Below, in pieces: positions 40,936 through 64,000 of a DNA stretch of 64,000 nucleotides. The notes beneath the pieces were generated by a model that did not search any database, was not told the origin of the DNA, and saw only the letters and a list, made by a program, of their open reading frames with translations. Source of the DNA: Eledone cirrhosa (taxonomy: Eukaryota); contig OZ024746.1 in the NCBI GenBank assembly GCA_964016885.1, positions 65,162,001-65,226,000 on the forward strand, given 5' to 3'. The stretch's first letter is position 1. Each line of letters opens with the position of its first letter. Made by a program: the position numbers and the translations under genes.

Positions 40936-40970
<35 letters not shown>

Positions 40971-40979
40971 AATATGTAT

Positions 40980-41010
<31 letters not shown>

Positions 41011-41311
41011 AATATGTATATATATATATATATATATAAATATGTATATATATATATATATATAAATAAATATGTATATAAATATATATATATATAAATA
41101 AATGAATATGTATATATATATATATATAAATAAATATGTATATATATTGTTATACTTTGGGAGGGTCATGTTGCCAATAAGAAACACACGCACCAGTTGC
41201 TTTCACTTCAATTTATTATATATTTATAAATTTATAAATTTACAAATTTACAAACTTATAAATTTCTGGTTGGTTGGTTGGTTCCACATCCAGATAGTTG
41301 TTTATATATAT

Positions 41312-41356
41312 AGTCATAGTCCTTTCGTCACACACTCTGTGACCTCTTCAGTGACT
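41312..41356 (-). ncRNA. Minimal type I hammerhead in pLTR (also 45592-45636, 49852-49896, 54109-54153, 58385-58429, 62661-62705)
   Basis: Minus strand agtca CTGAAGA g gtcaca-gagtg-tgtgac GAA AGGACT A tgact. Confidence 0.78.
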
Positions 41357-41656
41357 GGGGATCCCTTTCTTCATTTCTGTGCCTTTCCTTTCTTCTATCC
41401 TACGCCATTTTGTTTCTGTGTGTGTGTGTTGTGTGCTCAGTTTGCGCATGCGCCACATCCGGGTGTCTGTGTGTGTGTGTTCATTTTTCTATTTTTCTAT
41501 TTATATTTTTCTATTTGTTTATTTATTTATTTATTTATTGTTGGTTGGTTGTTTGTTCTATGTGTGTGTGTGTTTTCATTTTGTCCTGTGTGTGTTTTCA
41601 TTTTGTGTGTGTTTTCAATTGTAAGTTCTATGTGTGCGTGTGTTTTCATTTTGTCC

Positions 41657-44600
41657 TTAATTGTAAGTTGTGATGTTGCTGTTCCACTCATATTTTCTAT
41701 TTAATTTTGGTTTTAATTCTTTTATGCTTACTGCCTCTGTAATTTGCCTAAACATTGCGTCTTTTCTGTGCGTGGATTCTATTTTTATTTCTATGCTCTC
41801 TAATCTACTCCTGTGTTCTATCTTAGCATGTTGGTAGAGCACAGATGATTCTTTATTATCTTGGAGGTCTCGCCAGTGTTCATTTATTCGTTCCCCTATA
41901 CTACGAGCTGTCTCACCTATGTACACTATATTTTTGTTTCTACATTGTCCTTCAGTACATCTTATGCTATACACTACATTTCTAGTTTTACAGTTAATAT
42001 GGGGGCTTATTTTACAGGTTATACATTTCTTATCTATACATGAGGGTCTTTGGAACGGGTATGTCTTGCTAATAAGTGTTTTTACGGAGGTACCAGGTCT
42101 TTCTACTATCTTAATATTGAGATTATGTTTATTTAGGGCCCTTCTAAATTTGTAGGCTAGTTCGCCTCTAGGGGTTGTATTGGTGAACATTACACTCTGG
42201 TATTTATTGCTATCATACCATGAGTTTATTCTATTGGCCTTGTTCCTAGTTCTTTCTATTCTATTCCAAAATTTTCTCCTATACAAGGGGCAGGTCCCAT
42301 TTATGTCATTATTTACCATTTTTTCCCATTTGGTTCTGGCTCCTTTATACACTCTGATTCTATCTCTCTGATTGTAGCCAGAGAACTGCATACGGTGGAT
42401 GAAGTGTTGTATGTGTCTCTCTAGTTCTTCGGGGTTGCACATGCGGGACACATTTCTCATCACCCGTACCAAATCCGCAATCGGTATGTTGATTTTGGTA
42501 TGGTCCGAAATGGCCGAGTTTCGGTGGATCAGATGTTTGGAAGTCATGGGTTTGGCATAATGGGAATGGAGGATTTGTTTTTGGTTGTTAATGGAATCTA
42601 ACCAGAGCTCTGTGTCTAGTACAGGTAATCGATGGTTGGGGTGTCTACTTGGGTAGTCTATAGTAACTCTAATGCTCTGGTGGATGGAGTTTGCTATTTG
42701 CTGGATGCTTTCCATTGTGTTTTTCTCTAGTTCCTGACTGTTCTTTAGTGGGGGTGTCTTAACTACGATGTTTATATCATCTACGTAGCGGGAGTACATT
42801 ATCAGGGTTAAGCCGTCTTCTAATTGTTCATTAAGTTTTTGTTTAAGTCTACTGTCCCACCATACCATGAATAAGTTAGCTATGTCGCCTGCAATGCTAA
42901 CACCAATGGCTGCTCCTTCCTCTTGGGCATATGTTTTACCATTAAATTTGAACATATGTTCCTTAAGGGTTAATTTTATGCTGGCCCCTACCGCATGTGC
43001 AATCATTTTCTTCAGTTCGTGGTTTTCGGGTGTCCGTATGGCTCTGGTCCACCCGTTCCATCTATCTGTGTGGGTTTTCTTGGCCATTGAGGTAATGGTA
43101 GGTGGTCTGCCTCTTGCTGGTCTTGTAGGGCACAGGTTGCTAAGGTCATAAGTGTCTAGGTAACTATTACTATGGGTAAGTTTAAGTAGAAGTCCCAGCT
43201 CACTGGTATCAATCCCACGGAACTCAACCTTGCTCTCGCTGATCATTTCTACGCATTTCTCCACAGCAAAATCCATGTCAATAGATGGATACAGGGACAC
43301 AACATCCATACTGCCTATTATGCAGTTTGTTAGGTCCCCAGATCGGTTACCCGCGCCGATTCTGCTGAGGAGGTCCTCCGTGCTGTCACACACATCTGGG
43401 GACATCTCAATGATGGGGCGTATGATCAGGGAGAGGAAGTAGGACAGTCTGTAGTTACTAGCAATGTTAGCCCCACAGACTGGTCGTGTTGGTGGTCCCG
43501 TGACAGGGTCCCAGCCCGTTTTATGGTCTTTTCGAAGCCCATACAACGCCGGCACGTCATTGTTCCAGGCCTGGAAGTTGTTGGCAGTCCTTTTGTTGGG
43601 CTGCATTATATTTGTCCACATCACCATATGGGCATTGAGGGCTTTTTCTCTATCCTCATGCTCCTGTGGTGTTACCTCTCTTGTGTTAGTGATGTGGGGT
43701 TGCATTGCCTGGATGTAGTTTGACAGGCTGTCAACCGACATTCTGCCAGACTTGTCTGTTGGAAAACATGCTATCTCTCCATTACGCGAGCGCTGCATGA
43801 GCTTACGCAAGCCATTTGCAGATTCTTCTCCCAGTTGCTGGGCCTCTATTCTATTATGCTTCTTGCTATACTGTTCTATAATATTTCTAAGTTCGGATTT
43901 AGCTATACTAAATTGTGCTTCTGTTTGTTCATCGACCTGCGACGGCAACTGCGTGCGTTTGTTAAATGGCAAAGTCGTGGCGTGGACTCGTCGTAGGTCG
44001 AATGATTTATCGGAGGGGTTATAAAACGGAGAGTTCCAGGCTGCTGCTTTATGTGTACTAGTGCTATTATTATTGTTAGTTGTGTTATTTCTATTTCTAT
44101 TTCCACCAGCAGCCTCAGCTTCATGGTTGTTTCTATGTCTCTCATAATTACTCCTGTCTCTTTCCACTGGCTCAATGTTGTTATCTACCCTATTTTGTGT
44201 GTCTGTGTGTTCGTCTTGGTTATTCTCTTTGTCCTTAGTCTCCCATCTCCTTTTCTTTTTAATCCTATTACTTTCTCTTATTTCTCTGATTTCTGTGCTA
44301 CTGTCATTACTTGTTTTCTGTGTCTGTGTGTTTGTTAAGATTGTGGTGGTGGTGAGAGGCATTGAATGCGTATGTGTTGTTGTTGTTGATGTGTTTTGTT
44401 GTTGTCTCCGTGTGTGTGTGTGTTATCGTTGTTGTGTGTGTTGTTATTGTTGTTTGTGTCTGCGTGTCTGTTGTTGTTGTATCTGGGTATGTTGCTATTG
44501 TTGTTGTTGTTGATGTGTGTGTTGTTGTTATTGTTGTCTCCGTGTGTGTTATCGTTGCTGTGTGTGTTGTTATTGTTGTTTGTGTCTGCGTGTCTGTTGT

Positions 44601-45474
44601 TGTTGTATCTGGGTATGTTGCTATTGTTGTTGTTGTTGTTATTGTTGTTTGTGTCTGTGTGTCTGTTGTTGTTGGGATGTGTGTTGTATATGTGTGTGCG
44701 TATATTGTTGCTTTTGTTTTTGATGCTCCAGCGTAGTTTTGTAAATGATTTTTCTATTTCTGACAGACAACTAATCATATTTACCTTCTTGAATGTCGCA
44801 AATTTGGGTGGCAGACGTAATACAGACATTTCATTATTATCTATTTCCGTGTTTCCATAAATGTTGGTATTTTCGTTGTTGAACTCTTCAGATAATGAGG
44901 TGTCGGCCATGTTGATACCGTCAATTTTGTCGGGATATCTATTGGTATACTCTATAGTATCCCGATTTAGCTTTGCCTGTTTAAGCCACTTTAATTTTCT
45001 GTTAAAGTGCTTATCACATTCTTGAGTAATGTACTGTTCTTCGGGGCGTATAAGGCTTATAAATGTTAGTTTTTCTGCTGGTGTGGTGATTTTAGATATT
45101 TCTTGTATTAGGTTACGCTTTAGTTTTTCTTGATGACTTAATTCTCTATAGATCTTTTTTATGTTTAGAATTAAAGTTCGTTTTAGCCTATCTGCTTGTT
45201 TTTTGGTGAGTTGTAATCTTCTAACGTCGGTATTGATGGTGTTGGTGTAGATTCTAGAAGTGGTGCACAGTTTTATGAAGTGTAGTTGTCGAGATGTTAT
45301 GGTTTTTCGTAGACAACAGAACATGGTGGTTTTCAGTATTTTGTTAGCCTGGCTAAGGCTTACGATATTTCGTTTCTGAATTTGTTTAGCAAGATTCTTT
45401 ATCTGAAATCGTGTGTTGAAACCGATATTGTTATACTTTGGGAGGGTCATGTTGCCAATAAGAAACACACGCAC
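41657..45474 (-). pseudogene. PLE polyprotein copy 1, frameshifted (379 + 901 aa)
   Basis: Lacks 16 bp relative to the intact copy. Confidence 0.85.
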
Positions 45475-45913
45475 CAGTTGCTTTCACTTCAATTTATTAT
45501 ATATTTATAAATTTATAAATCTACAAACTTATAAATTATAAATTTCTGGTTGGTTGGTTGGTTCCACAACCAGATAGTTGTTTATATATATAGTCATAGT
45601 CCTTTCGTCACACACTCTGTGACCTCTTCAGTGACTGGGGATTCCTTTCTTCGTTTCTGTGCCTTTTCTTTCTTCTATCCTACGCCATTTTGTTTCTGTG
45701 TGTGTGTTGTGTGCTCAGTTTGCGCATGTGCCACATCCGGGTGTCTGTGTGTGTTTGTGTTCATTTTTCTATTTGTTTATTTATTTATTGTTGGTTGGTT
45801 CTTTGTTCTATGTGTGTGTGTGTTTTCATTTTGTCCTGTGTGTGTTTTCATTTTGTGTGTGTTTTCAATTGTAAGTTGTTTGTTCTATGTGTGTGTGTGT
45901 TTTCATTTTGTCC

Positions 45914-48900
45914 TTAATTGTAAGTTGTGATGTTGCTGTTCCACTCATATTTTCTATTTAATTTTGGTTTTAATTCTTTTATGCTTACTGCCTCTGTAAT
46001 TTGCCTAAACATTGCGTCTTTTCTGTGCGTGGATTCTATTTTTATTTCTATGCTCTCTAATCTACTCCTGTGTTCTATCTTAGCATGTTGGTAGAGCACA
46101 GATGATTCTTTATTATCTTGGAGGTCTCGCCAGTGTTCATTTATTCGTTCCCCTATACTACGAGCTGTCTCACCTATGTACACTATATTTTTGTTTCTAC
46201 ATTGTCCTTCAGTACATCTTATGCTATACACTACATTTCTAGTTTTACAGTTAATATGGGGGCTTATTTTACAGGTTATACATTTCTTATCTATACATGA
46301 GGGTCTTTGGAACGGGTATGTCTTGCTAATAAGTGTTTTTACGGAGGTACCAGGTCTTTCTACTATCTTAATATTGAGATTATGTTTATTTAGGGCCCTT
46401 CTAAATTTGTAGGCTAGTTCGCCTCTAGGGGTTGTATTGATGAACATTACACTCTGGTATTTATTGCTATCATACCATGAGTTTATTCTATTGGCCTTGT
46501 TCCTAGTTCTTTCTATTCTATTCCAAAATTTTCTCCTATACAAGGGGCAGGTCCCATTTATGTCATTATTTACCATTTTTTCCCATTTGGTTCTGGCTCC
46601 TTTATACACTCTGATTCTATCTCTCTGATTGTAGCCAGAGAACTGCATACGGTGGATGAAGTGTTGTATGTGTCTCTCTAGTTCTTCGGGGTTGCACATG
46701 CGGGACACATTTCTCATCACCCGTACCAAATCCGCAATCGGTATGTTGATTTTGGTATGGTCCGAAATGGCCGAGTTTCGGTGGATCAGATGTTTGGAAG
46801 TCATGGGTTTGGCATAATGGGAATGGAGGATTTGTTTTTGGTTGTTAATGGAATCTAACCAGAGCTCTGTGTCTAGTACAGGTAATCGATGGTTGGGGTG
46901 TCTACTTGGGTAGTCTATAGTAACTCTAATGCTCTGGTGGATGGAGTTTGCTATTTGCTGGATGCTTTCCATTGTGTTTTTCTCTAGTTCCTGACTGTTC
47001 TTTAGTGGGGGTCTCTTAACTACGATGTTTATATCATCTACGTAGCGGGAGTACATTATCAGGGTTAAGCCGTCTTCTAATTGTTCATTAAGTTTTTGTT
47101 TAAGTCTACTGTCCCACCATACCATGAATAAGTTAGCTATGTCGCCTGCAATGCTAACACCAATGGCTGCTCCTTCCTCTTGGGCATATGTTTTACCATT
47201 AAATTTGAACATATGTTCCTTAAGGGTTAATTTTATGCTGGCCCCTACCGCATGTGCAATCATTTTCTTCAGTTCATCGTGGTTTTCGGGTGTCCGTATG
47301 GCTCTGGTCCACCCGTTCCATCTATCTGTGTGGGTTTTCTTGGCCATTGAGGTAATGGTAGGTGGTCTGCCTCTTGCTGGTCTTGTAGGGCACAGGTTGC
47401 TAAGGTCATAAGTGTCTAGGTAACTATTACTATGGGTAAGTTTAAGTAGAAGTCCCAGCTCACTGGTATCAATCCCACGGAACTCAACCTTGCTCTCGCT
47501 GATCATTTCTACGCATTTCTCCACAGCAAAATCCATGTCAATAGATGGATACAGGGACACAACATCCATACTGCCTATTATGCAGTTTGTTAGGTCCCCA
47601 GATCGGTTACCCGCGCCGATTCTGCTGAGGAGGTCCTCCGTGCTGTCACACACATCTGGGGACATCTCAATGATGGGGCGTATGATCAGGGAGAGGAAGT
47701 AGGACAGTCTGTAGTTACTAGCAATGTTAGCCCCACAGACTGGTCGTGTTGGTGGTCCCGTGACAGGGTCCCAGCCCGTTTTATGGTCTTTTCGAAGCCC
47801 ATACAACGCCGGCACGTCATTGTTCCAGGCCTGGAAGTTGTTGGCAGTCCTTTTGTTGGGCTGCATTATATTTGTCCACATCACCATATGGGCATTGAGG
47901 GCTTTTTCTCTATCCTCATGCTCCTGTGGTGTTACCTCTCTTGTGTTAGTGATGTGGGGTTGCATTGCCTGGATGTAGTTTGGCAGGCTGTCAACCGACA
48001 TTCTGCCAGACTTGTCTGTTGGAAAACATGCTATCTCTCCATTACGCGAGCGCTGCATGAGCTTACGCAAGCCATTTGCAGATTCTTCTCCCAGTTGCTG
48101 GGCCTCTATTCTATTATGCTTCTTGCTATACTGTTCTATAATATTTCTAAGTTCGGATTTAGCTATACTAAATTGTGCTTCTGTTTGTTCATCGACCTGC
48201 GACGGCAACTGCGTGCGTTTGTTAAATGGCAAAGTCGTGGCGTGGACTCGTCGTAGGTCGAATGATTTATCGGAGGGGTTATAAAACGGAGATTTCCAGG
48301 CTGCTGCTTTATGTGTACTAGTGCTATTATTATTGTTAGTTGTGTTATTTCTATTTCTATTTCCACCAGCAGCCTCAGCTTCATGGTTGTTTCTATGTCT
48401 CTCATAATTACTCCTGTCTCTTTCCACTGGCTCAATGTTGTTATCTACCCTATTTTGTGTGTCTGTGTGTTCGTCTTGGTTATTCTCTTTGTCCTTAGTC
48501 TCCCATCTCCTTTTCTTTTTAATCCTATTACTTTCTCTTATTTCTCTGATTTCTGTGCTACTGTCATTACTTGTTTTCTGTGTCTGTGTGTTTGTTAAGA
48601 TTGTGGTGGTGGTGAGAGGCATTGAATGCGTATGTGTTGTTGTTGTTGATGTGTTTTGTTGTTGTCTCCGTGTGTGTGTGTGTTATCGTTGTTGTGTGTG
48701 TTGTTATTGTTGTTTGTGTCTGCGTGTCTGTTGTTGTTGTATCTGGGTATGTTGCTATTGTTGTTGTTGTTGATGTGTGTGTTGTTGTTATTGTTGTCTC
48801 CGTGTGTGTTATCGTTGCTGTGTGTGTTGTTATTGTTGTTTGTGTCTGCGTGTCTGTTGTTGTTGTATCTGGGTATGTTGCTATTGTTGTTGTTGTTGTT

Positions 48901-49734
48901 ATTGTTGTTTGTGTCTGTGTGTCTGTTGTTGTTGGGATGTGTGTTGTATATGTGTGTGCGTATATTGTTGCTTTTGTTTTTGATGCTCCAGCGTAGTTTT
49001 GTAAATGATTTTTCTATTTCTGACAGACAACTAATCATATTTACCTTCTTGAATGTCGCAAATTTGGGTGGCAGACGTAATACAGACATTTCATTATTAT
49101 CTATTTCCGTGTTTCCATAAATGTTGGTATTTTCGTTGTTGAACTCTTCAGATAATGAGGTGTCGGCCATGTTGATACCGTCAATTTTGTCGGGATATCT
49201 ATTGGTATACTCTATAGTATCCCGATTTAGCTTTGCCTGTTTAAGCCACTTTAATTTTCTGTTAAAGTGCTTATCACATTCTTGAGTAATGTACTGTTCT
49301 TCGGGGCGTATAAGGCTTATAAATGTTAGTTTTTCTGCTGGTGTGGTGATTTTAGATATTTCTTGTATTAGGTTACGCTTTAGTTTTTCTTGATGACTTA
49401 ATTCTCTATAGATCTTTTTTATGTTTAGAATTAAAGTTCGTTTTAGCCTATCTGCTTGTTTTTTGGTGAGTTGTAATCTTCTAACGTCGGTATTGATGGT
49501 GTTGGTGTAGATTCTAGAAGTGGTGCACAGTTTTATGAAGTGTAGTTGTCGAGATGTTATGGTTTTTCGTAGACAACAGAACATGGTGGTTTTCAGTATT
49601 TTGTTAGCCTGGCTAAGGCTTACGATATTTCGTTTCTGAATTTGTTTAGCAAGATTCTTTATCTGAAATCGTGTGTTGAAACCGATATTGTTATACTTTG
49701 GGAGGGTCATGTTGCCAATAAGAAACACACGCAC
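45914..49734 (-). pseudogene. PLE polyprotein copy 2, frameshifted (379 + 902 aa)
   Basis: Same 16-bp deletion. Confidence 0.85.
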
Positions 49735-50173
49735 CAGTTGCTTTCACTTCAATTTATTATATATTTATAAATTTATAAATCTACAAACTTATAAATTATA
49801 AATTTCTGGTTGGTTGGTTGGTTCCACAACCAGATAGTTGTTTATATATATAGTCATAGTCCTTTCGTCACACACTCTGTGACCTCTTCAGTGACTGGGG
49901 ATTCCTTTCTTCGTTTCTGTGCCTTTTCTTTCTTCTATCCTACGCCATTTTGTTTCTGTGTGTGTGTTGTGTGCTCAGTTTGCGCATGTGCCACATCCGG
50001 GTGTCTGTGTGTGTTTGTGTTCATTTTTCTATTTGTTTATTTATTTATTGTTGGTTGGTTCTTTGTTCTATGTGTGTGTGTGTTTTCATTTTGTCCTGTG
50101 TGTGTTTTCATTTTGTGTGTGTTTTCAATTGTAAGTTGTTTGTTCTATGTGTGTGTGTGTTTTCATTTTGTCC

Positions 50174-53100
50174 TTAATTGTAAGTTGTGATGTTGCTGTT
50201 CCACTCATATTTTCTATTTAATTTTGGTTTTAATTCTTTTATGCTTACTGCCTCTGTAATTTGCCTAAACATTGCGTCTTTTCTGTGCGTGGATTCTATT
50301 TTTATTTCTATGCTCTTTAATCTACTCCTGTGTTCTATCTTAGCATGTTGGTAGAGCACAGATGATTCTTTATTATCTTGGAGGTCTCGCCAGTGTTCAT
50401 TTATTCGTTCCCCTATACTACGAGCTGTCTCACCTATGTACACTATATTTTTGTTTCTACATTGTCCTTCAGTACATCTTATGCTATACACTACATTTCT
50501 AGTTTTACAGTTAATATGGGGGCTTATTTTACAGGTTATACATTTCTTATCTATACATGAGGGTCTTTGGAACGGGTATGTCTTGCTAATAAGTGTTTTT
50601 ACGGAGGTACCAGGTCTTTCTACTATCTTAATATTGAGATTATGTTTATTTAGGGCCCTTCTAAATTTGTAGGCTAGTTCGCCTCTAGGGGTTGTATTGA
50701 TGAACATTACACTCTGGTATTTATTGCTATCATACCATGAGTTTATTCTATTGGCCTTGTTCCTAGTTCTTTCTATTCTATTCCAAAATTTTCTCCTATA
50801 CAAGGGGCAGGTCCCATTTATGTCATTATTTACCATTTTTTCCCATTTGGTTCTGGCTCCTTTATACACTCTGATTCTATCTCTCTGATTGTAGCCAGAG
50901 AACTGCATACGGTGGATGAAGTGTTGTATGTGTCTCTCTAGTTCTTCGGGGTTGCACATGCGGGACACATTTCTCATCACCCGTACCAAATCCGCAATCG
51001 GTATGTTGATTTTGGTATGGTCCGAAATGGCCGAGTTTCGGTGGATCAGATGTTTGGAAGTCATGGGTTTGGCATAATGGGAATGGAGGATTTGTTTTTG
51101 GTTGTTAATGGAATCTAACCAGAGCTCTGTGTCTAGTACAGGTAATCGATGGTTGGGGTGTCTACTTGGGTAGTCTATAGTAACTCTAATGCTCTGGTGG
51201 ATGGAGTTTGCTATTTGCTGGATGCTTTCCATTGTGTTTTTCTCTAGTTCCTGACTGTTCTTTAGTGGGGGTGTCTTAACTACGATGTTTATATCATCTA
51301 CGTAGCGGGAGTACATTATCAGGGTTAAGCCGTCTTCTAATTGTTCATTAAGTTTTTGTTTAAGTCTACTGTCCCACCATACCATGAATAAGTTAGCTAT
51401 GTCGCCTGCAATGCTAACACCAATGGCTGCTCCTTCCTCTTGGGCATATGTTTTACCATTAAATTTGAACATATGTTCCTTAAGGGTTAATTTTATGCTG
51501 GCCCCTACCGCATGTGCAATCCTTTTCTTCAGTTCGTGGTTTTCGGGTGTCCGTATGGCTCTGGTCCACCCGTTCCATCTATCTGTGTGGGTTTTCTTGG
51601 CCATTGAGGTAATGGTAGGTGGTCTGCCTCTTGCTGGTCTTGTAGGGCACAGGTTGCTAAGGTCATAAGTGTCTAGGTAACTATTACTATGGGTAAGTTT
51701 AAGTAGAAGTCCCAGCTCACTGGTATCAATCCCACGGAACTCAACCTTGCTCTCGCTGATCATTTCTACGCATTTCTCCACAGCAAAATCCATGTCAATA
51801 GATGGATACAGGGACACAACATCCATACTGCCTATTATGCAGTTTGTTAGGTCCCCAGATCGGTTACCCGCGCCGATTCTGCTGAGGAGGTCCTCCGTGC
51901 TGTCACACACATCTGGGGACATCTCAATGATGGGGCGTATGATCAGGGAGAGGAAGTAGGACAGTCTGTAGTTACTAGCAATGTTAGCCCCACAGACTGG
52001 TCGTGTTGGTGGTCCCGTGACAGGGTCCCAGCCCGTTTTATGGTCTTTTCGAAGCCCATACAACGCCGGCACGTCATTGTTCCAGGCCTGGAAGTTGTTG
52101 GCAGTCCTTTTGTTGGGCTGCATTATATTTGTCCACATCACCATATGGGCATTGAGGGCTTTTTCTCTATCCTCATGCTCCTGTGGTGTTACCTCTCTTG
52201 TGTTAGTGATGTGGGGTTGCATTGCCTGGATGTAGTTTGGCAGGCTGTCAACCGACATTCTGCCAGACTTGTCTGTTGGAAAACATGCTATCTCTCCATT
52301 ACGCGAGCGCTGCATGAGCTTACGCAAGCCATTTGCAGATTCTTCTCCCAGTTGCTGGGCCTCTATTCTATTATGCTTCTTGCTATACTGTTCTATAATA
52401 TTTCTAAGTTCGGATTTAGCTATACTAAATTGTGCTTCTGTTTGTTCATCGACCTGCGACGGCAACTGCGTGCGTTTGTTAAATGGCAAAGTCGTGGCGT
52501 GGACTCGTCGTAGGTCGAATGATTTATCGGAGGGGTTATAAAACGGAGAGTTCCAGGCTGCTGCTTTATGTGTACTAGTGCTATTATTATTGTTAGTTGT
52601 GTTATTTCTATTTCTATTTCCACCAGCAGCCTCAGCTTCATGGTTGTTTCTATGTCTCTCATAATTACTCCTGTCTCTTTCCACTGGCTCAATGTTGTTA
52701 TCTACCCTATTTTGTGTGTCTGTGTGTTCGTCTTGGTTATTCTCTTTGTCCTTAGTCTCCCATCTCCTTTTCTTTTTAATCCTATTACTTTCTCTTATTT
52801 CTCTGATTTCTGTGCTACTGTCATTACTTGTTTTCTGTGTCTGTGTGTTTGTTAAGATTGTGGTGGTGGTGAGAGGCATTGAATGCGTATGTGTTGTTGT
52901 TGTTGATGTGTTTTGTTGTTGTCTCCGTGTGTGTGTGTGTTATCGTTGTTGTGTGTGTTGTTATTGTTGTTTGTGTCTGCGTGTCTGTTGTTGTTGTATC
53001 TGGGTATGTTGCTATTGTTGTTGTTGTTGATGTGTGTGTTGTTGTTATTGTTGTCTCCGTGTGTGTTATCGTTGCTGTGTGTGTTGTTATTGTTGTTTGT

Positions 53101-53991: not shown

Positions 53992-54430
53992 CAGTTGCTT
54001 TCACTTCAATTTATTATATATTTATAAATTTATAAATCTACAAACTTATAAATTATAAATTTCTGGTTGGTTGGTTGGTTCCACAACCAGATAGTTGTTT
54101 ATATATATAGTCATAGTCCTTTCGTCACACACTCTGTGACCTCTTCAGTGACTGGGGATTCCTTTCTTCGTTTCTGTGCCTTTTCTTTCTTCTATCCTAC
54201 GCCATTTTGTTTCTGTGTGTGTGTTGTGTGCTCAGTTTGCGCATGTGCCACATCCGGGTGTCTGTGTGTGTTTGTGTTCATTTTTCTATTTGTTTATTTA
54301 TTTATTGTTGGTTGGTTCTTTGTTCTATGTGTGTGTGTGTTTTCATTTTGTCCTGTGTGTGTTTTCATTTTGTGTGTGTTTTCAATTGTAAGTTGTTTGT
54401 TCTATGTGTGTGTGTGTTTTCATTTTGTCC

Positions 54431-57400
54431 TTAATTGTAAGTTGTGATGTTGCTGTTCCACTCATATTTTCTATTTAATTTTGGTTTTAATTCTTTTATG
54501 CTTACTGCCTCTGTAATTTGCCTAAACATTGCGTCTTTTCTGTGCGTGGATTCTATTTTTATTTCTATGCTCTCTAATCTACTCCTGTGTTCTATCTTAG
54601 CATGTTGGTAGAGCACAGATGATTCTTTATTATCTTGGAGGTCTCGCCAGTGTTCATTTATTCGTTCCCCTATACTACGAGCTGTCTCACCTATGTACAC
54701 TATATTTTTGTTTCTACATTGTCCTTCAGTACATCTTATGCTATACACTACATTTCTAGTTTTACAGTTAATATGGGGGCTTATTTTACAGGTTATACAT
54801 TTCTTATCTATACATGAGGGTCTTTGGAACGGGTATGTCTTGCTAATAAGTGTTTTTACGGAGGTACCAGGTCTTTCTACTATCTTAATATTGAGATTAT
54901 GTTTATTTAGGGCCCTTCTAAATTTGTAGGCTAGTTCGCCTCTAGGGGTTGTATTGATGAACATTACACTCTGGTATTTATTGCTATCATACCATGAGTT
55001 TATTCTATTGGCCTTGTTCCTAGTTCTTTCTATTCTATTCCAAAATTTGCTCCTATACAAGGGGCAGGTCCCATTTATGTCATTATTTACCATTTTTACC
55101 CATTTGGTTCTGGCTCCTTTATACACTCTGATTCTATCTCTCTGATTGTAGCCAGAGAACTGCATACGGTGGATGAAGTGTTGTATGTGTCTCTCTAGTT
55201 CTTCGGGGTTGCACATGCGGGACACATTTCTCATCACCCGTACCAAATCCGCAATCGGTATGTTGATTTTGGTATGGTCCGAAATGGCCGAGTTTCGGTG
55301 GATCAGATGTTTGGAAGTCATGGGTTTGGCATAATGGGAATGGAGGATTTGTTTTTGGTTGTTAATGGAATCTAACCAGAGCTCTGTGTCTAGTACAGGT
55401 AATCGATGGTTGGGGTGTCTACTTGGGTAGTCTATAGTAACTCTAATGCTCTGGTGGATGGAGTTTGCTATTTGCTGGATGCTTTCCATTGTGTTTTTCT
55501 CTAGTTCCTGACTGTTCTTTAGTGGGGGTGTCTTAACTACGATGTTTATATCATCTACGTAGCGGGAGTACATTATCAGGGTTAAGCCGTCTTCTAATTG
55601 TTCATTAAGTTTTTGTTTAAGTCTACTGTCCCACCATACCATGAATAAGTTAGCTATGTCGCCTGCAATGCTAACACCAATGGCTGCTCCTTCCTCTTGG
55701 GCATATGTTTTACCATTAAATTTGAACATATGTTCCTTAAGGGTTAATTTTATGCTGGCCCCTACCGCATGTGCAATCATTTTCTTCAGTTCATCGTGGT
55801 TTTCGGGTGTCCGTATGGCTCTGGTCCACCCGTTCCATCTATCTGTGTGGGTTTTCTTGGCCATTGAGGTAATGGTAGGTGGTCTGCCTCTTGCTGGTCT
55901 TGTAGGGCACAGGTTGCTAAGGTCATAAGTGTCTAGGTAACTATTACTATGGGTAAGTTTAAGTAGAAGTCCCAGCTCACTGGTATCAATCCCACGGAAC
56001 TCAACCTTGCTCTCGCTGATCATTTCTACGCATTTCTCCACAGCAAAATCCATGTCAATAGATGGATACAGGGACACAACATCCATACTGCCTATTATGC
56101 AGTTTGTTAGGTCCCCAGATCGGTTACCCGCGCCGATTCTGCTGAGGAGGTCCTCCGTGCTGTCACACACATCTGGGGACATCTCAATGATGGGGCGTAT
56201 GATCAGGGAGAGGAAGTAGGACAGTCTGTAGTTACTAGCAATGTTAGCCCCACAGACTGGTCGTGTTGGTGGTCCCGTGACAGGGTCCCAGCCCGTTTTA
56301 TGGTCTTTTCGAAGCCCATACAACGCCGGCACGTCATTGTTCCAGGCCTGGAAGTTGTTGGCAGTCCTTTTGTTGGGCTGCATTATATTTGTCCACATCA
56401 CCATATGGGCATTGAGGGCTTTTTCTCTATCCTCATGCTCCTGTGGTGTTACCTCTCTTGTGTTAGTGATGTGGGGTTGCATTGCCTGGATGTAGTTTGG
56501 CAGGCTGTCAACCGACATTCTGCCAGACTTGTCTGTTGGAAAACATGCTATCTCTCCATTACGCGAGCGCTGCATGAGCTTACGCAAGCCATTTGCAGAT
56601 TCTTCTCCCAGTTGCTGGGCCTCTATTCTATTATGCTTCTTGCTATACTGTTCTATAATATTTCTAAGTTCGGATTTAGCTATACTAAATTGTGCTTCTG
56701 TTTGTTCATCGACCTGCGACGGCAACTGCGTGCGTTTGTTAAATGGCAAAGTCGTGGCGTGGACTCGTCGTAGGTCGAATGATTTATCGGAGGGGTTATA
56801 AAACGGAGAGTTCCAGGCTGCTGCTTTATGTGTACTAGTGCTATTATTATTGTTAGTTGTGTTATTTCTATTTCTATTTCCACCAGCAGCCTCAGCTTCA
56901 TGGTTGTTTCTATGTCTCTCATAATTACTCCTGTCTCTTTCCACTGGCTCAATGTTGTTATCTACCCTATTTTGTGTGTCTGTGTGTTCGTCTTGGTTAT
57001 TCTCTTTGTCCTTAGTCTCCCATCTCCTTTTCTTTTTAATCCTATTACTTTCTCTTATTTCTCTGATTTCTGTGCTACTGTCATTACTTGTTTTCTGTGT
57101 CTGTGTGTTTGTTAAGATTGTGGTGGTGGTGAGAAGCATTGAATGCGTATGTGTTGTTGTTGTTGATGTGTGTTGTTGTTGATGTGTTTTGTTGTTGTCT
57201 CCGTGTGTGTGTGTGTTATCGTTGTTGTGTGTGTTGTTATTGTTGTTTGTGTCTGCGTGTCTGTTGTTGTTGTATCTGGGTATGTTGCTATTGTTGTTGT
57301 TGTTGATGTGTGTGTTGTTGTTATTGTTGTCTCCGTGTGTGTTATCGTTGCTGTGTGTGTTGTTATTGTTGTTTGTGTCTGCGTGTCTGTTGTTGTTGTA

Positions 57401-58267
57401 TCTGGGTATGTTGCTATTGTTGTTGTTGTTGTTATTGTTGTTTGTGTCTGTGTGTCTGTTGTTGTTGGGATGTGTGTTGTATATGTGTGTGCGTATATTG
57501 TTGCTTTTGTTTTTGATGCTCCAGCGTAGTTTTGTAAATGATTTTTCTATTTCTGACAGACAACTAATCATATTTACCTTCTTGAATGTCGCAAATTTGG
57601 GTGGCAGACGTAATACAGACATTTCATTATTATCTATTTCCGTGTTTCCATAAATGTTGGTATTTTCGTTGTTGAACTCTTCAGATAATGAGGTGTCGGC
57701 CATGTTGATACCGTCAATTTTGTCGGGATATCTATTGGTATACTCTATAGTATCCCGATTTAGCTTTGCCTGTTTAAGCCACTTTAATTTTCTGTTAAAG
57801 TGCTTATCACATTCTTGAGTAATGTACTGTTCTTCGGGGCGTATAAGGCTTATAAATGTTAGTTTTTCTGCTGGTGTGGTGATTTTAGATATTTCTTGTA
57901 TTAGGTTACGCTTTAGTTTTTCTTGATGACTTAATTCTCTATAGATCTTTTTTATGTTTAGAATTAAAGTTCGTTTTAGCCTATCTGCTTGTTTTTTGGT
58001 GAGTTGTAATCTTCTAACGTCGGTATTGATGGTGTTGGTGTAGATTCTAGAAGTGGTGCACAGTTTTATGAAGTGTAGTTGTCGAGATGTTATGGTTTTT
58101 CGTAGACAACAGAACATGGTGGTTTTCAGTATTTTGTTAGCCTGGCTAAGGCTTACGATATTTCGTTTCTGAATTTGTTTAGCAAGATTCTTTATCTGAA
58201 ATCGTGTGTTGAAACCGATATTGTTATACTTTGGGAGGGTCATGTTGCCAATAAGAAACACACGCAC
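54431..58267 (-). CDS. Intact PLE polyprotein (RT + Cys linker + GIY-YIG), 1278 aa from GTG; first ATG at 58243
   Basis: LPPKFA, TDKSG, LRKDHK..PTRPV, SMDVVSLYPSI, QEEGAAIG, RYVDD, VLDT, CIDKKCITC..C, NVVYSIRC..YIGET..ERINEH. Confidence 0.93.
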   Translation of the reverse strand: MRVFLIGNMTLPKYNNIGFNTRFQIKNLAKQIQKRNIVSLSQANKILKTTMFCCLRKTITSRQLHFIKLCTTSRIYTNTINTDVRRLQLTKKQADRLKRTLILNIKKIYRELSHQEKLKRNLIQEISKITTPAEKLTFISLIRPEEQYITQECDKHFNRKLKWLKQAKLNRDTIEYTNRYPDKIDGINMADTSLSEEFNNENTNIYGNTEIDNNEMSVLRLPPKFATFKKVNMISCLSEIEKSFTKLRWSIKNKSNNIRTHIYNTHPNNNRHTDTNNNNNNNNNSNIPRYNNNRHADTNNNNNTHSNDNTHGDNNNNNTHINNNNNSNIPRYNNNRHADTNNNNNTHNNDNTHTHGDNNKTHQQQHTSTTTTHTHSMLLTTTTILTNTQTQKTSNDSSTEIREIRESNRIKKKRRWETKDKENNQDEHTDTQNRVDNNIEPVERDRSNYERHRNNHEAEAAGGNRNRNNTTNNNNSTSTHKAAAWNSPFYNPSDKSFDLRRVHATTLPFNKRTQLPSQVDEQTEAQFSIAKSELRNIIEQYSKKHNRIEAQQLGEESANGLRKLMQRSRNGEIACFPTDKSGRMSVDSLPNYIQAMQPHITNTREVTPQEHEDREKALNAHMVMWTNIMQPNKRTANNFQAWNNDVPALYGLRKDHKTGWDPVTGPPTRPVCGANIASNYRLSYFLSLIIRPIIEMSPDVCDSTEDLLSRIGAGNRSGDLTNCIIGSMDVVSLYPSIDMDFAVEKCVEMISESKVEFRGIDTSELGLLLKLTHSNSYLDTYDLSNLCPTRPARGRPPTITSMAKKTHTDRWNGWTRAIRTPENHDELKKMIAHAVGASIKLTLKEHMFKFNGKTYAQEEGAAIGVSIAGDIANLFMVWWDSRLKQKLNEQLEDGLTLIMYSRYVDDINIVVKTPPLKNSQELEKNTMESIQQIANSIHQSIRVTIDYPSRHPNHRLPVLDTELWLDSINNQKQILHSHYAKPMTSKHLIHRNSAISDHTKINIPIADLVRVMRNVSRMCNPEELERHIQHFIHRMQFSGYNQRDRIRVYKGARTKWVKMVNNDINGTCPLYRSKFWNRIERTRNKANRINSWYDSNKYQSVMFINTTPRGELAYKFRRALNKHNLNIKIVERPGTSVKTLISKTYPFQRPSCIDKKCITCKISPHINCKTRNVVYSIRCTEGQCRNKNIVYIGETARSIGERINEHWRDLQDNKESSVLYQHAKIEHRSRLESIEIKIESTHRKDAMFRQITEAVSIKELKPKLNRKYEWNSNITTYN

Positions 58268-58706
58268 CAGTTGCTTTCACTTCAATTTATTATATATTTA
58301 TAAATTTATAAATCTACAAACTTATAAATTATAAATTTCTGGTTGGTTGGTTGGTTCCACAACCAGATAGTTGTTTATATATATAGTCATAGTCCTTTCG
58401 TCACACACTCTGTGACCTCTTCAGTGACTGGGGATTCCTTTCTTCGTTTCTGTGCCTTTTCTTTCTTCTATCCTACGCCATTTTGTTTCTGTGTGTGTGT
58501 TGTGTGCTCAGTTTGCGCATGTGCCACATCCGGGTGTCTGTGTGTGTTTGTGTTCATTTTTCTATTTGTTTATTTATTTATTGTTGGTTGGTTGTTTGTT
58601 CTATGTGTGTGTGTGTTTTCATTTTGTCCTGTGTGTGTTTTCATTTTGTGTGTGTTTTCAATTGTAAGTTGTTTGTTCTATGTGTGTGTGTGTTTTCATT
58701 TTGTCC

Positions 58707-61700
58707 TTAATTGTAAGTTGTGATGTTGCTGTTCCACTCATATTTTCTATTTAATTTTGGTTTTAATTCTTTTATGCTTACTGCCTCTGTAATTTGCCTA
58801 AACATTGCGTCTTTTCTGTGCGTGGATTCTATTTTTATTTCTATGCTCTCTAATCTACTCCTGTGTTCTATCTTAGCATGTTGGTAGAGCACAGATGATT
58901 CTTTATTATCTTGGAGGTCTCGCCAGTGTTCATTTATTCGTTCCCCTATACTACGAGCTGTCTCACCTATGTACACTATATTTTTGTTTCTACATTGTCC
59001 TTCAGTACATCTTATGCTATACACTACATTTCTAGTTTTACAGTTAATATGGGGGCTTATTTTACAGGTTATACATTTCTTATCTATACATGAGGGTCTT
59101 TGGAACGGGTATGTCTTGCTAATAAGTGTTTTTACGGAGGTACCAGGTCTTTCTACTATCTTAATATTGAGATTATGTTTATTTAGGGCCCTTCTAAATT
59201 TGTAGGCTAGTTCGCCTCTAGGGGTTGTATTGATGAACATTACACTCTGGTATTTATTGCTATCATACCATGAGTTTATTCTATTGGCCTTGTTCCTAGT
59301 TCTTTCTATTCTATTCCAAAATTTGCTCCTTTACAAGGGGCAGGTCCCATTTATGTCATTATTTACCATTTTTACCCATTTGGTTCTGGCTCCTTTATAC
59401 ACTCTGATTCTATCTCTCTGATTGTAGCCAGAGAACTGCATACGGTGGATGAAGTGTTGTATGTGTCTCTCTAGTTCTTCGGGGTTGCACATGCGGGACA
59501 CATTTCTCATCACCCGTACCAAATCCGCAATCGGTATGTTGATTTTGGTATGGTCCGAAATGGCCGAGTTTCGGTGGATCAGATGTTTGGAAGTCATGGG
59601 TTTGGCATAATGGGAATGGAGGATTTGTTTTTGGTTGTTAATGGAATCTAACCAGAGCTCTGTGTCTAGTACAGGTAATCGATGGTTGGGGTGTCTACTT
59701 GGGTAGTCTATAGTAACTCTAATGCTCTGGTGGATGGAGTTTGCTATTTGCTGGATGCTTTCCATTGTGTTTTTCTCTAGTTCCTGACTGTTCTTTAGTG
59801 GGGGTGTCTTAACTACGATGTTTATATCATCTACGTAGCGGGAGTACATTATCAGGGTTAAGCCGTCTTCTAATTGTTCATTAAGTTTTTGTTTAAGTCT
59901 ACTGTCCCACCATACCATGAATAAGTTAGCTATGTCGCCTGCAATGCTAACACCAATGGCTGCTCCTTCCTCTTGGGCATATGTTTTACCATTAAATTTG
60001 AACATATGTTCCTTAAGGGTTAATTTTATGCTGGCCCCTACCGCATGTGCAATCATTTTCTTCAGTTCATCGTGGTTTTCGGGTGTCCGTATGGCTCTGG
60101 TCCACCCGTTCCATCTATCTGTGTGGGTTTTCTTGGCCATTGAGGTAATGGTAGGTGGTCTGCCTCTTGCTGGTCTTGTAGGGCACAGGTTGCTAAGGTC
60201 ATAAGTGTCTAGGTAACTATTACTATGGGTAAGTTTAAGTAGAAGTCCCAGCTCACTGGTATCAATCCCACGGAACTCAACCTTGCTCTCGCTGATCATT
60301 TCTACGCATTTCTCCACAGCAAAATCCATGTCAATAGATGGATACAGGGACACAACATCCATACTGCCTATTATGCAGTTTGTTAGGTCCCCAGATCGGT
60401 TACCCGCGCCGATTCTGCTGAGGAGGTCCTCCGTGCTGTCACACACATCTGGGGACATCTCAATGATGGGGCGTATGATCAGGGAGAGGAAGTAGGACAG
60501 TCTGTAGTTACTAGCAATGTTAGCCCCACAGACTGGTCGTGTTGGTGGTCCCGTGACAGGGTCCCAGCCCGTTTTATGGTCTTTTCGAAGCCCATACAAC
60601 GCCGGCACGTCATTGTTCCAGGCCTGGAAGTTGTTGGCAGTCCTTTTGTTGGGCTGCATTATATTTGTCCACATCACCATATGGGCATTGAGGGCTTTTT
60701 CTCTATCCTCATGCTCCTGTGGTGTTACCTCTCTTGTGTTAGTGATGTGGGGTTGCATTGCCTGGATGTAGTTTGGCAGGCTGTCAACCGACATTCTGCC
60801 AGACTTGTCTGTTGGAAAACATGCTATCTCTCCATTACGCGAGCGCTGCATGAGCTTACGCAAGCCATTTGCAGATTCTTCTCCCAGTTGCTGGGCCTCT
60901 ATTCTATTATGCTTCTTGCTATACTGTTCTATAATATTTCTAAGTTCGGATTTAGCTATACTAAATTGTGCTTCTGTTTGTTCATCGACCTGCGACGGCA
61001 ACTGCGTGCGTTTGTTAAATGGCAAAGTCGTGGCGTGGACTCGTCGTAGGTCGAATGATTTATCGGAGGGGTTATAAAACGGAGAGTTCCAGGCTGCTGC
61101 TTTATGTGTACTAGTGCTATTATTATTGTTAGTTGTGTTATTTCTATTTCTATTTCCACCAGCAGCCTCAGCTTCATGGTTGTTTCTATGTCTCTCATAA
61201 TTACTCCTGTCTCTTTCCACTGGCTCAATGTTGTTATCTACCCTATTTTGTGTGTCTGTGTGTTCGTCTTGGTTATTCTCTTTGTCCTTAGTCTCCCATC
61301 TCCTTTTCTTTTTAATCCTATTACTTTCTCTTATTTCTCTGATTTCTGTGCTACTGTCATTACTTGTTTTCTGTGTCTGTGTGTTTGTTAAGATTGTGGT
61401 GGTGGTGAGAAGCATTGAATGCGTATGTGTTGTTGTTGTTGATGTGTGTTGTTGTTGATGTGTTTTGTTGTTGTCTCCGTGTGTGTGTGTGTTATCGTTG
61501 TTGTGTGTGTTGTTATTGTTGTTTGTGTCTGCGTGTCTGTTGTTGTTGTATCTGGGTATGTTGCTATTGTTGTTGTTGTTGATGTGTGTGTTGTTGTTAT
61601 TGTTGTCTCCGTGTGTGTTATCGTTGCTGTGTGTGTTGTTATTGTTGTTTGTGTCTGCGTGTCTGTTGTTGTTGTATCTGGGTATGTTGCTATTGTTGTT

Positions 61701-62543
61701 GTTGTTGTTATTGTTGTTTGTGTCTGTGTGTCTGTTGTTGTTGGGATGTGTGTTGTATATGTGTGTGCGTATATTGTTGCTTTTGTTTTTGATGCTCCAG
61801 CGTAGTTTTGTAAATGATTTTTCTATTTCTGACAGACAACTAATCATATTTACCTTCTTGAATGTCGCAAATTTGGGTGGCAGACGTAATACAGACATTT
61901 CATTATTATCTATTTCCGTGTTTCCATAAATGTTGGTATTTTCGTTGTTGAACTCTTCAGATAATGAGGTGTCGGCCATGTTGATACCGTCAATTTTGTC
62001 GGGATATCTATTGGTATACTCTATAGTATCCCGATTTAGCTTTGCCTGTTTAAGCCACTTTAATTTTCTGTTAAAGTGCTTATCACATTCTTGAGTAATG
62101 TACTGTTCTTCGGGGCGTATAAGGCTTATAAATGTTAGTTTTTCTGCTGGTGTGGTGATTTTAGATATTTCTTGTATTAGGTTACGCTTTAGTTTTTCTT
62201 GATGACTTAATTCTCTATAGATCTTTTTTATGTTTAGAATTAAAGTTCGTTTTAGCCTATCTGCTTGTTTTTTGGTGAGTTGTAATCTTCTAACGTCGGT
62301 ATTGATGGTGTTGGTGTAGATTCTAGAAGTGGTGCACAGTTTTATGAAGTGTAGTTGTCGAGATGTTATGGTTTTTCGTAGACAACAGAACATGGTGGTT
62401 TTCAGTATTTTGTTAGCCTGGCTAAGGCTTACGATATTTCGTTTCTGAATTTGTTTAGCAAGATTCTTTATCTGAAATCGTGTGTTGAAACCGATATTGT
62501 TATACTTTGGGAGGGTCATGTTGCCAATAAGAAACACACGCAC
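58707..62543 (-). pseudogene. PLE polyprotein copy 5, nonsense TAT>TAA before the endonuclease
   Basis: Stop at 59331-59333 after GTCPL. Confidence 0.88.
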
Positions 62544-62978
62544 CAGTTGCTTTCACTTCAATTTATTATATATTTATAAATTTATAAATCTACAAACTTA
62601 TAAATTATAAATTTCTGGTTGGTTGGTTGGTTCCACAACCAGATAGTTGTTTATATATATAGTCATAGTCCTTTCGTCACACACTCTGTGACCTCTTCAG
62701 TGACTGGGGATTCCTTTCTTCGTTTCTGTGCCTTTTCTTTCTTCTATCCTACGCCATTTTGTTTCTGTGTGTTGTGTGCTCAGTTTGCGCATGTGCCACA
62801 TCCGGGTGTCTGTGTGTGTTTGTGTTCATTTTTCTATTTGTTTATTTATTTATTGTTGGTTGGTTGTTTGTTCTATGTGTGTGTGTGTTTTCATTTTGTC
62901 CTGTGTGTGTTTTCATTTTGTGTGTGTTTTCAATTGTAAGTTGTTTGTTCTATGTGTGTGTGTGTTTTCATTTTGTCC

Positions 62979-64000
62979 TTAATTGTAAGTTGTGATGTTG
63001 CTGTTCCACTCATATTTTCTATTTAATTTTGGTTTTAATTCTTTTATGCTTACTGCCTCTGTAATTTGCCTAAACATTGCGTCTTTTCTGTGCGTGGATT
63101 CTATTTTTATTTCTATGCTCTCTAATCTACTCCTGTGTTCTATCTTAGCATGTTGGTAGAGCACAGATGATTCTTTATTATCTTGGAGGTCTCGCCAGTG
63201 TTCATTTATTCGTTCCCCTATACTACGAGCTGTCTCACCTATGTACACTATATTTTTGTTTCTACATTGTCCTTCAGTACATCTTATGCTATACACTACA
63301 TTTCTAGTTTTACAGTTAATATGGGGGCTTATTTTACAGGTTATACATTTCTTATCTATACATGAGGGTCTTTGGAACGGGTATGTCTTGCTAATAAGTG
63401 TTTTTACGGAGGTACCAGGTCTTTCTACTATCTTAATATTGAGATTATGTTTATTTAGGGCCCTTCTAAATTTGTAGGCTAGTTCGCCTCTAGGGGTTGT
63501 ATTGATGAACATTACACTCTGGTATTTATTGCTATCATACCATGAGTTTATTCTATTGGCCTTGTTCCTAGTTCTTTCTATTCTATTCCAAAATTTGCTC
63601 CTTTACAAGGGGCAGGTCCCATTTATGTCATTATTTACCATTTTTACCCATTTGGTTCTGGCTCCTTTATACACTCTGATTCTATCTCTCTGATTGTAGC
63701 CAGAGAACTGCATACGGTGGATGAAGTGTTGTATGTGTCTCTCTAGTTCTTCGGGGTTGCACATGCGGGACACATTTCTCATCACCCGTACCAAATCCGC
63801 AATCGGTATGTTGATTTTGGTATGGTCCGAAATGGCCGAGTTTCGGTGGATCAGATGTTTGGAAGTCATGGGTTTGGCATAATGGGAATGGAGGATTTGT
63901 TTTTGGTTGTTAATGGAATCTAACCAGAGCTCTGTGTCTAGTACAGGTAATCGATGGTTGGGGTGTCTACTTGGGTAGTCTATAGTAACTCTAATGCTCT
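62979..64000 (-). pseudogene. PLE polyprotein copy 6 (partial), same nonsense mutation
   Basis: Stop near 63603 after GTCPL. Confidence 0.85.

What the first reader, a model, noticed from the sequence alone, without database searches (positions are those of the whole stretch)
41143..64000. Over 22 kb head-to-tail array of full-length PLE units
PLEs are known to form partial tandems, but five or more near-identical full-length units in a row, each separated by a hammerhead, is unusual. It mirrors the retrozyme arrays at about nine times the unit size. Possible origins are rolling-circle reverse transcription of an HHR-generated circular RNA, repeated insertion, or unequal crossover.
Basis: partly seen in the sequence, partly recalled or inferred. 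Interest (0 to 1): 0.7.

Follow-up and report, generated by a model that had tools for sequence, protein, structure and literature searches.

The report
Six-copy Penelope retrotransposon tandem array
Six full copies and one partial copy of a Penelope-type jumping gene, each with a hammerhead ribozyme motif, sit head to tail in a TA microsatellite; the run likely began as a short multi-copy insertion and likely grew later by unequal DNA exchange, while younger sister insertions suggest that the element's enzyme copies one RNA more than once.

Summary
Confirmed. The array is 27.4 kb: six full 4.26-4.28-kb units plus a 5'-cut 1.8-kb unit, ending 4.6 kb past the window, in (TA)n. The unit is a Neptune-type Penelope-like element (RT, C-terminal GIY-YIG) with one minimal type I hammerhead per pseudo-LTR. 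One of six frames is whole.

A single rolling-circle pass is unlikely. Five substitutions and two deletions are shared by subsets of mostly neighbouring units, the terminal pseudo-LTR is about 2-3% divergent, and 0 of 32 other arms of its subfamily pass a marker twice. Best reading (0.62): a 1.4-2.4-unit insertion later expanded by unequal exchange. A haplotype mis-join is untested (0.12).

In a younger subfamily, 13 of 63 arms pass a marker two or three times, and nine arms hold two full, near-identical units. Two of those have only about 20-36 bases upstream. This supports reiterated copying at insertion, proposed in print in 2014; I found no paper showing it. One hyper-edited locus argues for template switching rather than one circle. 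No RNA data. This scan noted similar two-armed multimers for non-coding retrozymes elsewhere in this genome.

The parts
41144..64000 (-). Tandem PLE array, part inside the window; it continues to extended coordinate 68573 (G000:C6:65230573), 6.4 units in all
41144..45424 (-). Unit U1 (3'-terminal); 16-bp deletion shifts the frame; divergent terminal pseudo-LTR
45425..49684 (-). Unit U2; same 16-bp deletion
49685..53941 (-). Unit U3; same 16-bp deletion
53942..58217 (-). Unit U4 (coordinate reference q1-4276)
58218..62493 (-). Unit U5; premature stop shared with U6
62494..64000 (-). Unit U6, 3' part; runs to 66765 and is preceded by the 5'-truncated U0 (66766-68573), both outside the window
54431..58243 (-). 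The only unbroken ORF, 1270 aa: Asn-rich N-terminal part, RT (YVDD), CX4CX2C linker, C-terminal GIY-YIG
   Evidence: closest named protein 69% identical, Octopus vulgaris
41144..41656 (-). Terminal pseudo-LTR: 11 substitutions and several indels against the internal ones; best match among fetched loci 96.4%, against 98-99% for an internal one
41312..41356 (-). Minimal type I hammerhead motif (predicted cut after 41317)
45592..45636 (-). Hammerhead motif (predicted cut after 45597)
49852..49896 (-). Hammerhead motif
54109..54153 (-). Hammerhead motif
58385..58429 (-). Hammerhead motif
62661..62705 (-). Hammerhead motif
39691..41143 (.). (TA)n target tract at the element's 3' end; a similar tract flanks the far end

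Best explanation
This is a 6.4-unit head-to-tail array of a Neptune-type Penelope-like retrotransposon in a TA microsatellite, which likely started as a 1.4- to 2.4-unit insertion and likely grew to its present length by unequal exchange between its own units. Step 1 (structure shown, mechanism inferred): the element's endonuclease/RT inserts at (TA)n and starts copying just inside the ORF; genomic 3' ends lie at ORF+26 or ORF+86. In this family copying often runs past one unit, from a circular monomer or by jumping back onto a homologous RNA end. Step 2 (inferred): the direct repeats, at least 1.8 kb long, mispaired and duplicated units on the chromosome after mutations had begun to accumulate. 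That gave two blocks of three related units (U6-U5-U4 and U3-U2-U1), mosaic body/pseudo-LTR combinations, and a single odd terminal pseudo-LTR. The hammerheads repeat simply because each unit carries one; whether they cut is untested. No offspring of the array were found.
For: (1) Nested sharing. U4-6 share two derived substitutions; U1-3 share a 16-bp deletion and one substitution; U5-6 share a stop; U0, U4, U3 and U2 share another change (states polarised on 35-120 dispersed arms). About 0.007 such repeats are expected from independent errors, against 5 seen. Six of 7 shared variants are contiguous (5% of 720 orders do as well), and the pseudo-LTR marker is incompatible with the body markers, as recombination predicts. 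(2) Seven substitutions are common to the array and absent from all sampled dispersed arms (0 of 35 to 0 of 81). A stretch holding three of them matches fully only in the array's segments; the other 33 of the 40 scored hits all score as three mismatches. (3) The array is an outlier: 0 of 32 other arms of its subfamily pass a marker twice, and 58 of 58 other arms outside the young subfamily carry the 5' marker once. At the young subfamily's rate (p=0.20 per unit), six passes have probability 3.4e-4 per arm. (4) The terminal pseudo-LTR is divergent here, whereas it is within 0-1 substitution of the internal ones in 6 of 6 multimer loci compared. (5) Expansion of TE tandems by unequal exchange is documented (PMC5932611, passages).
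Against: Sequence alone cannot separate a real unequal crossover between two 3-unit alleles from an assembler joining them; the 3+3 block pattern fits both. One marker (q3900) and a 3-bp deletion (in U3 and U1, not U2) each need an extra conversion or multi-unit exchange. Block-wise sharing also occurs in 2 young multimer loci (C3:66.5, C4:116.3), and one locus shows different templates within an arm (L067), so template switching by RT can mimic part of the pattern. At the upper bound of p (0.31) and an assumed 300 long arms, 0.8 six-unit arms are expected from RT alone. The origin of the odd terminal pseudo-LTR is not explained.
Confidence: 0.62

Rival explanations
1. All 6.4 units were made in one reiterated (rolling-circle or jump-back) reverse transcription of a 4.27-kb monomer RNA; the blocks arose later by gene conversion.
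For: U0 and all full units share private alleles, as one template predicts. The 3' end is the family's usual end and the 5' end is an arbitrary truncation. The family makes multi-unit arms: 13 of 63 young arms pass a marker at least twice and 3 pass it three times, and survival across the unit junction (14 of 36 over 3.05 kb) is no lower per kb than inside the ORF (36 of 73 over 1.23 kb).
Against: It needs 27 kb of continuous copying; 0 of 63 young arms pass four times. Marks 2 kb apart would have to be converted together into three neighbours, twice. The terminal pseudo-LTR is of another type. In the array's own subfamily 0 of 32 other arms are multimers.
Confidence: 0.15
2. The assembly joined two alleles of about 3.4 units each (U0-U6-U5-U4 and U0'-U3-U2-U1), so the true array is about half as long.
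For: There are exactly two blocks of three, and U4's pseudo-LTR carries the U0 allele, as such a join would give. The array is longer than typical accurate long reads (recalled, 15-20 kb).
Against: No left-over copies turned up: the private alleles occur only in the 7 segments, and each flank query has one full-length identical match among 40 scored candidates; purging could hide left-overs. It needs both alleles to have already expanded independently to three units.
Confidence: 0.12
3. The units were added from several sibling RNAs, by template switching in one event or by repeated insertion into the element's own pseudo-LTR.
For: At L067 the 5' partial and the inverted arm share 31-32 A>G changes (0 T>C) that the terminal unit lacks, so one arm was built from two templates. 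The anole PLE protein cuts its own ORF-pseudo-LTR junction in vitro (PMC11167929). The odd terminal pseudo-LTR may record such an event.
Against: It needs four or five sibling sources that share seven private alleles; none was found. All six junctions are seamless, without tails or inversions.
Confidence: 0.08
4. The array is a retro-copy of a read-through transcript from a parent array elsewhere.
For: Multi-copy PLE mRNA from tandem loci is the published scenario (PMC11167929).
Against: No other run above 2 full units among 100 listed of 115 matches or among 38 of 38 subfamily matches. It only moves the expansion to another locus.
Confidence: 0.03

Closest known systems
C-terminal-endonuclease PLEs of the Neptune/Nematis type (PMC8557442, passages)
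   Same: One ORF with RT then GIY-YIG; CX2-5CxxC linker; pseudo-LTRs from partial tandems; inverted 5'-truncated arms and optional tail in dispersed copies; (TA)n targets; hammerhead in the pseudo-LTR.
   Different: The tail is 60 nt, not 30-40. The passages read describe partial tandems, and multicopy head-to-tail insertions for non-autonomous Chlamys elements; six full-length coding-size units were not described in what I read. The clade was not placed on a tree.
PAc (Poseidon of Anolis carolinensis; PMC11167929, parts 1-2 of 4)
   Same: Tandem or partial-tandem loci; two internal RT start sites that define the tail; AT-rich targets; both strands cut and extended, which fits the two-armed insertions seen here.
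   Different: PAc's hammerhead overlaps the start codon; here the predicted cut lies 146 nt upstream of the ATG. For PAc, hammerhead cutting was not needed in vitro and no RNA ends mapped there, which counts against a circle.
Circular-template model for PLEs (PMC4209133, part 1 of 4 and passages)
   Same: Minimal type I hammerhead with an unpaired base before stem II and a 1-2-bp stem III; the paper proposes circles as templates for more-than-unit reverse transcription and head-to-tail copies.
   Different: Offered there as tentative. The young multimers here give genomic counts that bear on it, but this array itself needs later DNA-level steps.
Tandem TE arrays expanded by unequal exchange (PMC5932611, passages) and tandem LTR retrotransposons sharing LTRs (PMC11899658, abstract)
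   Same: Head-to-tail whole elements that share the terminal repeat, from a single insertion.
   Different: The seed repeat here is made by the PLE's own more-than-unit copying; no target-site copy lies at the junctions, so double insertion does not fit.
Animal non-LTR retrozymes (PMC7229834, passages; preprint 10.64898/2026.07.22.740005, part 1 of 5 and passages)
   Same: Tandem units with one type I hammerhead each.
   Different: Retrozymes are non-coding, a few hundred bases, with circles shown by northern blot. This unit is 4.27 kb, encodes its own enzyme, and no RNA has been seen.

Membership tests
Penelope-like element, C-terminal EN+ | Single ORF with RT followed by a GIY-YIG endonuclease | tested here: met
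   1270-aa frame. GIY-YIG PF01541 scores 24.0 bits, cutoff 22.6, on the last 122 aa; RVT_1 is weak (E 1.7e-4, below cutoff). RT motifs MDVVSLYPSI and YVDD read directly.
Penelope-like element, C-terminal EN+ | Pseudo-LTRs from partial tandems, inverted arms, optional tail | tested here: met
   Dispersed copies show direct partial tandems, head-to-head inverted arms and a 60-nt tail on one end.
Penelope-like element, C-terminal EN+ | CCHH motif in the endonuclease | tested here: met
   Two Cys between the NVVY and YIG halves and downstream His residues, read against the description in PMC8557442; not aligned to reference sequences.
Penelope-like element, C-terminal EN+ | RT groups with telomerase/PLE RTs on a tree | not tested
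   No named reference set on hand; the PDB sequence search gave one weak unrelated match (E 0.11).
Neptune (versus Nematis) clade | CX2-5CxxC linker before the GIY-YIG; (TA)n targeting | tested here: met
   C-x4-C-x2-C precedes the endonuclease; insertion ends abut (TA)n. The linker is shared with Nematis.
Neptune (versus Nematis) clade | Phylogenetic placement with named Neptune families | not tested
   The 120 listed homologues carry no clade names.
Minimal type I hammerhead of metazoan PLEs | CUGANGA and GAAA cores, stems I and II, short stem III, NUH site | tested here: met
   5-bp stem I, 6-bp stem II, 2-bp stem III, CUA site; 90 of 122 arms carry one of two sequences differing at one stem-III base. 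Rfam gave no hammerhead hit. The free fold is not better than shuffles (z -1.14) and its minimum-energy form uses another stem I pairing.
Minimal type I hammerhead of metazoan PLEs | Self-cleavage (dimer- or protein-assisted) | not testable with these tools
   Needs an in vitro assay or RNA ends.
Non-LTR retrozyme | Small non-coding unit | tested here: not met
   The unit is 4.27 kb and encodes RT and endonuclease.
Single rolling-circle concatemer | All units, terminal repeat included, differ only by independent changes | tested here: not met
   Five shared substitutions, two shared deletions and a divergent terminal pseudo-LTR. Met or nearly met by young loci such as C10:43.9, C9:26.4 and C1526.

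The most novel reading that the evidence does not exclude
This autonomous PLE family replicates through a 4.3-kb, protein-coding, hammerhead-made RNA circle. Its RT starts inside the circle on both cut DNA ends and rolls round with about a 20% chance of finishing each further turn, so two-armed insertions of up to five units are born in one step, and such concatemers seed large coding satellites like this 27-kb array.
Probability: 0.33. Interest if true: 0.75.

Novelty: new member of a known kind. Interest (0 to 1): 0.47.

Why it matters
How PLEs make their tandem and inverted copies is an open question: a circle was proposed in 2014, and an in vitro study in 2024 found ribozyme cutting dispensable. 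The array alone is an unusually long case of a known route from transposon to satellite. Its young relatives matter more: they give countable genomic predictions (units per arm, no pause at the junction, variants shared across both arms, one edited template) and a named 4.28-kb RNA whose circular or linear form can be tested directly.

Tried and rejected
Reads. No RNA holder was listed, so expression, monomer ends and circles were not testable. Contigs of two runs showed no contig with the array's allele at the private sites they covered, and two RAD-seq runs were too patchy. Contigs drop rare variants and the animals may differ, so this says nothing on copy number. A circle's junction would in any case read the same as the genomic tandem junction.

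RNA editing as a family-wide marker: rejected. Locus-shared private changes had 13 A>G and 15 T>C of 67; unit-specific ones had 75 and 30 of 416, on 1405 A and 736 T sites. Only L067 is clearly hyper-edited.

A recombination hot spot at the hammerhead cut: not seen; linkage across it stays at r2 0.92-1.0 for the informative markers in 58 loci.

An early estimate of rarity, from 34 full-length loci chosen by likeness to the array (none had two full units in one arm within the 10 kb fetched), was biased; the exact-pattern lists found the multimers.

Array as a master copy: no offspring among 40 scored of 754 candidates. Rfam found only microRNA-like noise in the 150 of 205 rows shown and no hammerhead. 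The PDB sequence search was blank.

Literature: 'Penelope + tandem array + pLTR' gave 0 papers. Searches listed no paper whose title or abstract start describes arrays of more than two full-length PLE units. Most subscription papers, including the 2005-2006 PLE reviews, are outside the library, and no supplements were read; they may describe such arrays.
Full report
Observation. The stretch 41144-64000 matches itself at multiples of 4.26-4.28 kb, 99.5% over 18.6 kb. The window is G000:C6:65162001-65226000 of a 3.0-Gb genome. With the next 28 kb fetched, the array ends at extended position 68573. It holds six full units (U1 at 41144 to U6 ending 66765) and a 5'-truncated unit U0 of 1.8 kb (unit positions q2465-4276), 27.4 kb in all, on the minus strand. 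Both ends abut (TA)n; there is no inverted arm and no tail.

The unit. The unbroken frame in U4 is 1270 aa from the ATG. [quoted passage not shown] The closest named protein is 69% identical, from Octopus vulgaris; I did not determine the host. The linker and TA targeting fit the Neptune/Nematis type described in PMC8557442 (passages). U5 and U6 stop at 1062 aa; U1-U3 shift frame at 371 aa. Each pseudo-LTR holds one minimal type I hammerhead, with the predicted cut 146 nt upstream of the ATG. It matches the description in PMC4209133 (part 1 of 4). Rfam does not detect it, and its free fold is no better than shuffles. Genomic 3' ends of the family lie at ORF+26 or ORF+86, that is 172 or 232 nt downstream of that cut, like the two internal RT starts of the anole element (PMC11167929, parts 1-2 of 4).

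Variation inside the array. Variants were polarised on 156 dispersed arms from 64 fetched loci. Seven substitutions are common to all units that cover them and absent from every dispersed arm (0 of 35 to 0 of 81); three lie in U0 too. A 356-bp query with those three matched fully only in the array's segments (U2 differs by one change of its own), and the other 33 of 40 scored hits all scored as three mismatches. No parent or offspring is therefore evident. On top of this, U6-U5-U4 share two derived substitutions, U5-U6 share the stop, U3-U2-U1 share a 16-bp deletion and a substitution, U3 and U1 share a 3-bp deletion, and U0, U4, U3 and U2 share a pseudo-LTR change. Independent errors would give about 0.007 repeated hits against 5 seen. 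Six of 7 shared variants are contiguous, matched by 5% of 720 orders, and the pseudo-LTR marker conflicts with the body markers, which points to recombination. U1's terminal pseudo-LTR differs by 11 substitutions and several indels in about 480 bp, carries alleles of another subfamily, and has no relative closer than 96.4% among the fetched loci.

How rare is it? An exact 26-base pattern near the 5' end of the ORF has 115 matches, 100 listed. They form 88 arms: 80 single, 7 double and this one with six. All 7 doubles belong to a younger subfamily. A pattern for that subfamily gave 80 of 80 matches listed, in 63 arms: 50 pass the marker once, 10 twice, 3 three times, none four times. A pattern for the array's own subfamily gave 38 matches: the six units and 32 single arms. 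These lists need exact matches, so older or mutated copies are missed.

The young multimers. Sixteen young loci were compared. Nine arms at 7 loci hold two full units; two insertions have two full units on both arms (C4:116.27 Mb, 4.8 units; contig C1526). Units mostly differ by 0-5 substitutions, terminal pseudo-LTR included; one terminal unit (C4:215.2 Mb) has 18 small indels that look like sequencing error. Nine of 16 loci carry 1-6 variants found at no other of the 16 but shared by all segments that cover them, in six loci across both arms. Two arms have only about 36 and 20 bases upstream of two full units, too little for unequal exchange to have made them from a monomer, though loss of a palindrome's centre could fake this. 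Survival across the unit junction (14 of 36 over 3.05 kb) is no lower per kb than inside the ORF (36 of 73 over 1.23 kb). I infer that RT copies one template, or RNAs of one source, more than once at insertion. PMC4209133 proposed this through a circle, tentatively (passage).

Against a simple circle. At L067 the 5' partial and the inverted arm share 31-32 A>G changes and no T>C, on both sides of the hammerhead cut, while the full terminal unit has none of them and differs at subfamily sites. Read as A-to-I editing (inference), both central segments copied one RNA and the terminal unit another. At C3:66.5 and C4:116.3 the 5' partial also sides with the opposite arm rather than with its own arm's full units. 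Template jumping between two RNAs, or later exchange, is thus part of the picture. In the anole element, hammerhead cutting was not needed for insertion in vitro.

Reading for this array. At p=0.20 per unit, six passes have probability 3.4e-4 per arm: 0.02 expected among 63 arms, 0.10 among an assumed 300, and 0.83 at the upper bound of p. Length alone therefore makes one pass unlikely but does not exclude it. The nested variants need DNA-level copying after mutation in any case. The simplest history is a seed of 1.4-2.4 units, within the family's normal range, followed by unequal exchange, as known for other TE tandems (PMC5932611, passages; PMC11899658, abstract). The 3+3 pattern would also result from an assembler joining two alleles. 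No left-over copy or second flank was found, but only long reads can decide. The laid runs were contigs and RAD-seq and could not test this.

Verdict. A real and, among the matches listed, unique long array of a known class of element, most likely explained by known processes. Its value lies in having led to a young subfamily whose multimers make the open question of PLE replication testable. Other papers seen only as passages or listings: PMC7229834, PMC12910113, PMC13282606, PMC3846280, preprint 10.64898/2026.07.22.740005. Earlier notes of this scan describe two-armed multimers of non-coding retrozymes in this genome; one prompted the editing test. They are leads, not support.

Noticed in passing
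L073-L075 (G000:C4:116262094-116282957): Two-armed insertion of 4.8 units (2 + 2.8) of the young subfamily; units differ by at most one substitution and two indels, and four long frames are open (1258-1278 codons). The best single example of a multimer likely born at insertion.
   Followed up: yes
L067:721-7084: The 5' partial and the inverted arm share 31-32 A>G changes around the hammerhead; the full terminal unit lacks them. Likely an A-to-I-edited RNA copied twice, joined to a unit from another template.
   Followed up: partly
window 1-1888, 9056-9505, 10300-11067, 22699-23417: A ~510-bp tandem repeat with a different hammerhead core (482, 1005, 1514 on minus; 10777, 22798, 23220 on plus), retrozyme-like; no BLAST match to the PLE unit.
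   Followed up: no
window 8621-8912: Older solo pseudo-LTR of the array's family (87%) with the 60-nt tail, between TA tracts; its hammerhead stem II is decayed.
   Followed up: partly
window 12086-14578 (+): 830-codon open frame with no Pfam hit at E 0.01; a weak match to the GIY-YIG region of the array's protein (E 0.047) suggests another, distant PLE family.
   Followed up: partly
window 31956-33944 (-): LINE-type frame with AP endonuclease and RT domains.
   Followed up: no
window 22013-22645 (-): 210-codon frame with a PHD finger above Pfam's cutoff, probably part of a mobile element.
   Followed up: no
window 38610-39020: Palindromic repeat of about 410 bp with many 93-98% copies in the genome, MITE-like.
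   Followed up: no
L001:7248-7500: End of a very young repeat: the scored hits are 100% identical over 252 bp and often occur as inverted pairs 3-7 kb apart; not identified.
   Followed up: no
window 53942-58217, runs X5-X8: Runs labelled as four other organisms hold long pieces of this family at roughly 95-99% identity; related species or horizontal spread cannot be told from coded names.
   Followed up: partly
dispersed arms L026, L039, L042, L047, L085-L086: Several 5' truncations fall at q19-56, inside the tail region, as if the RT start structure also stalls a passing RT.
   Followed up: no
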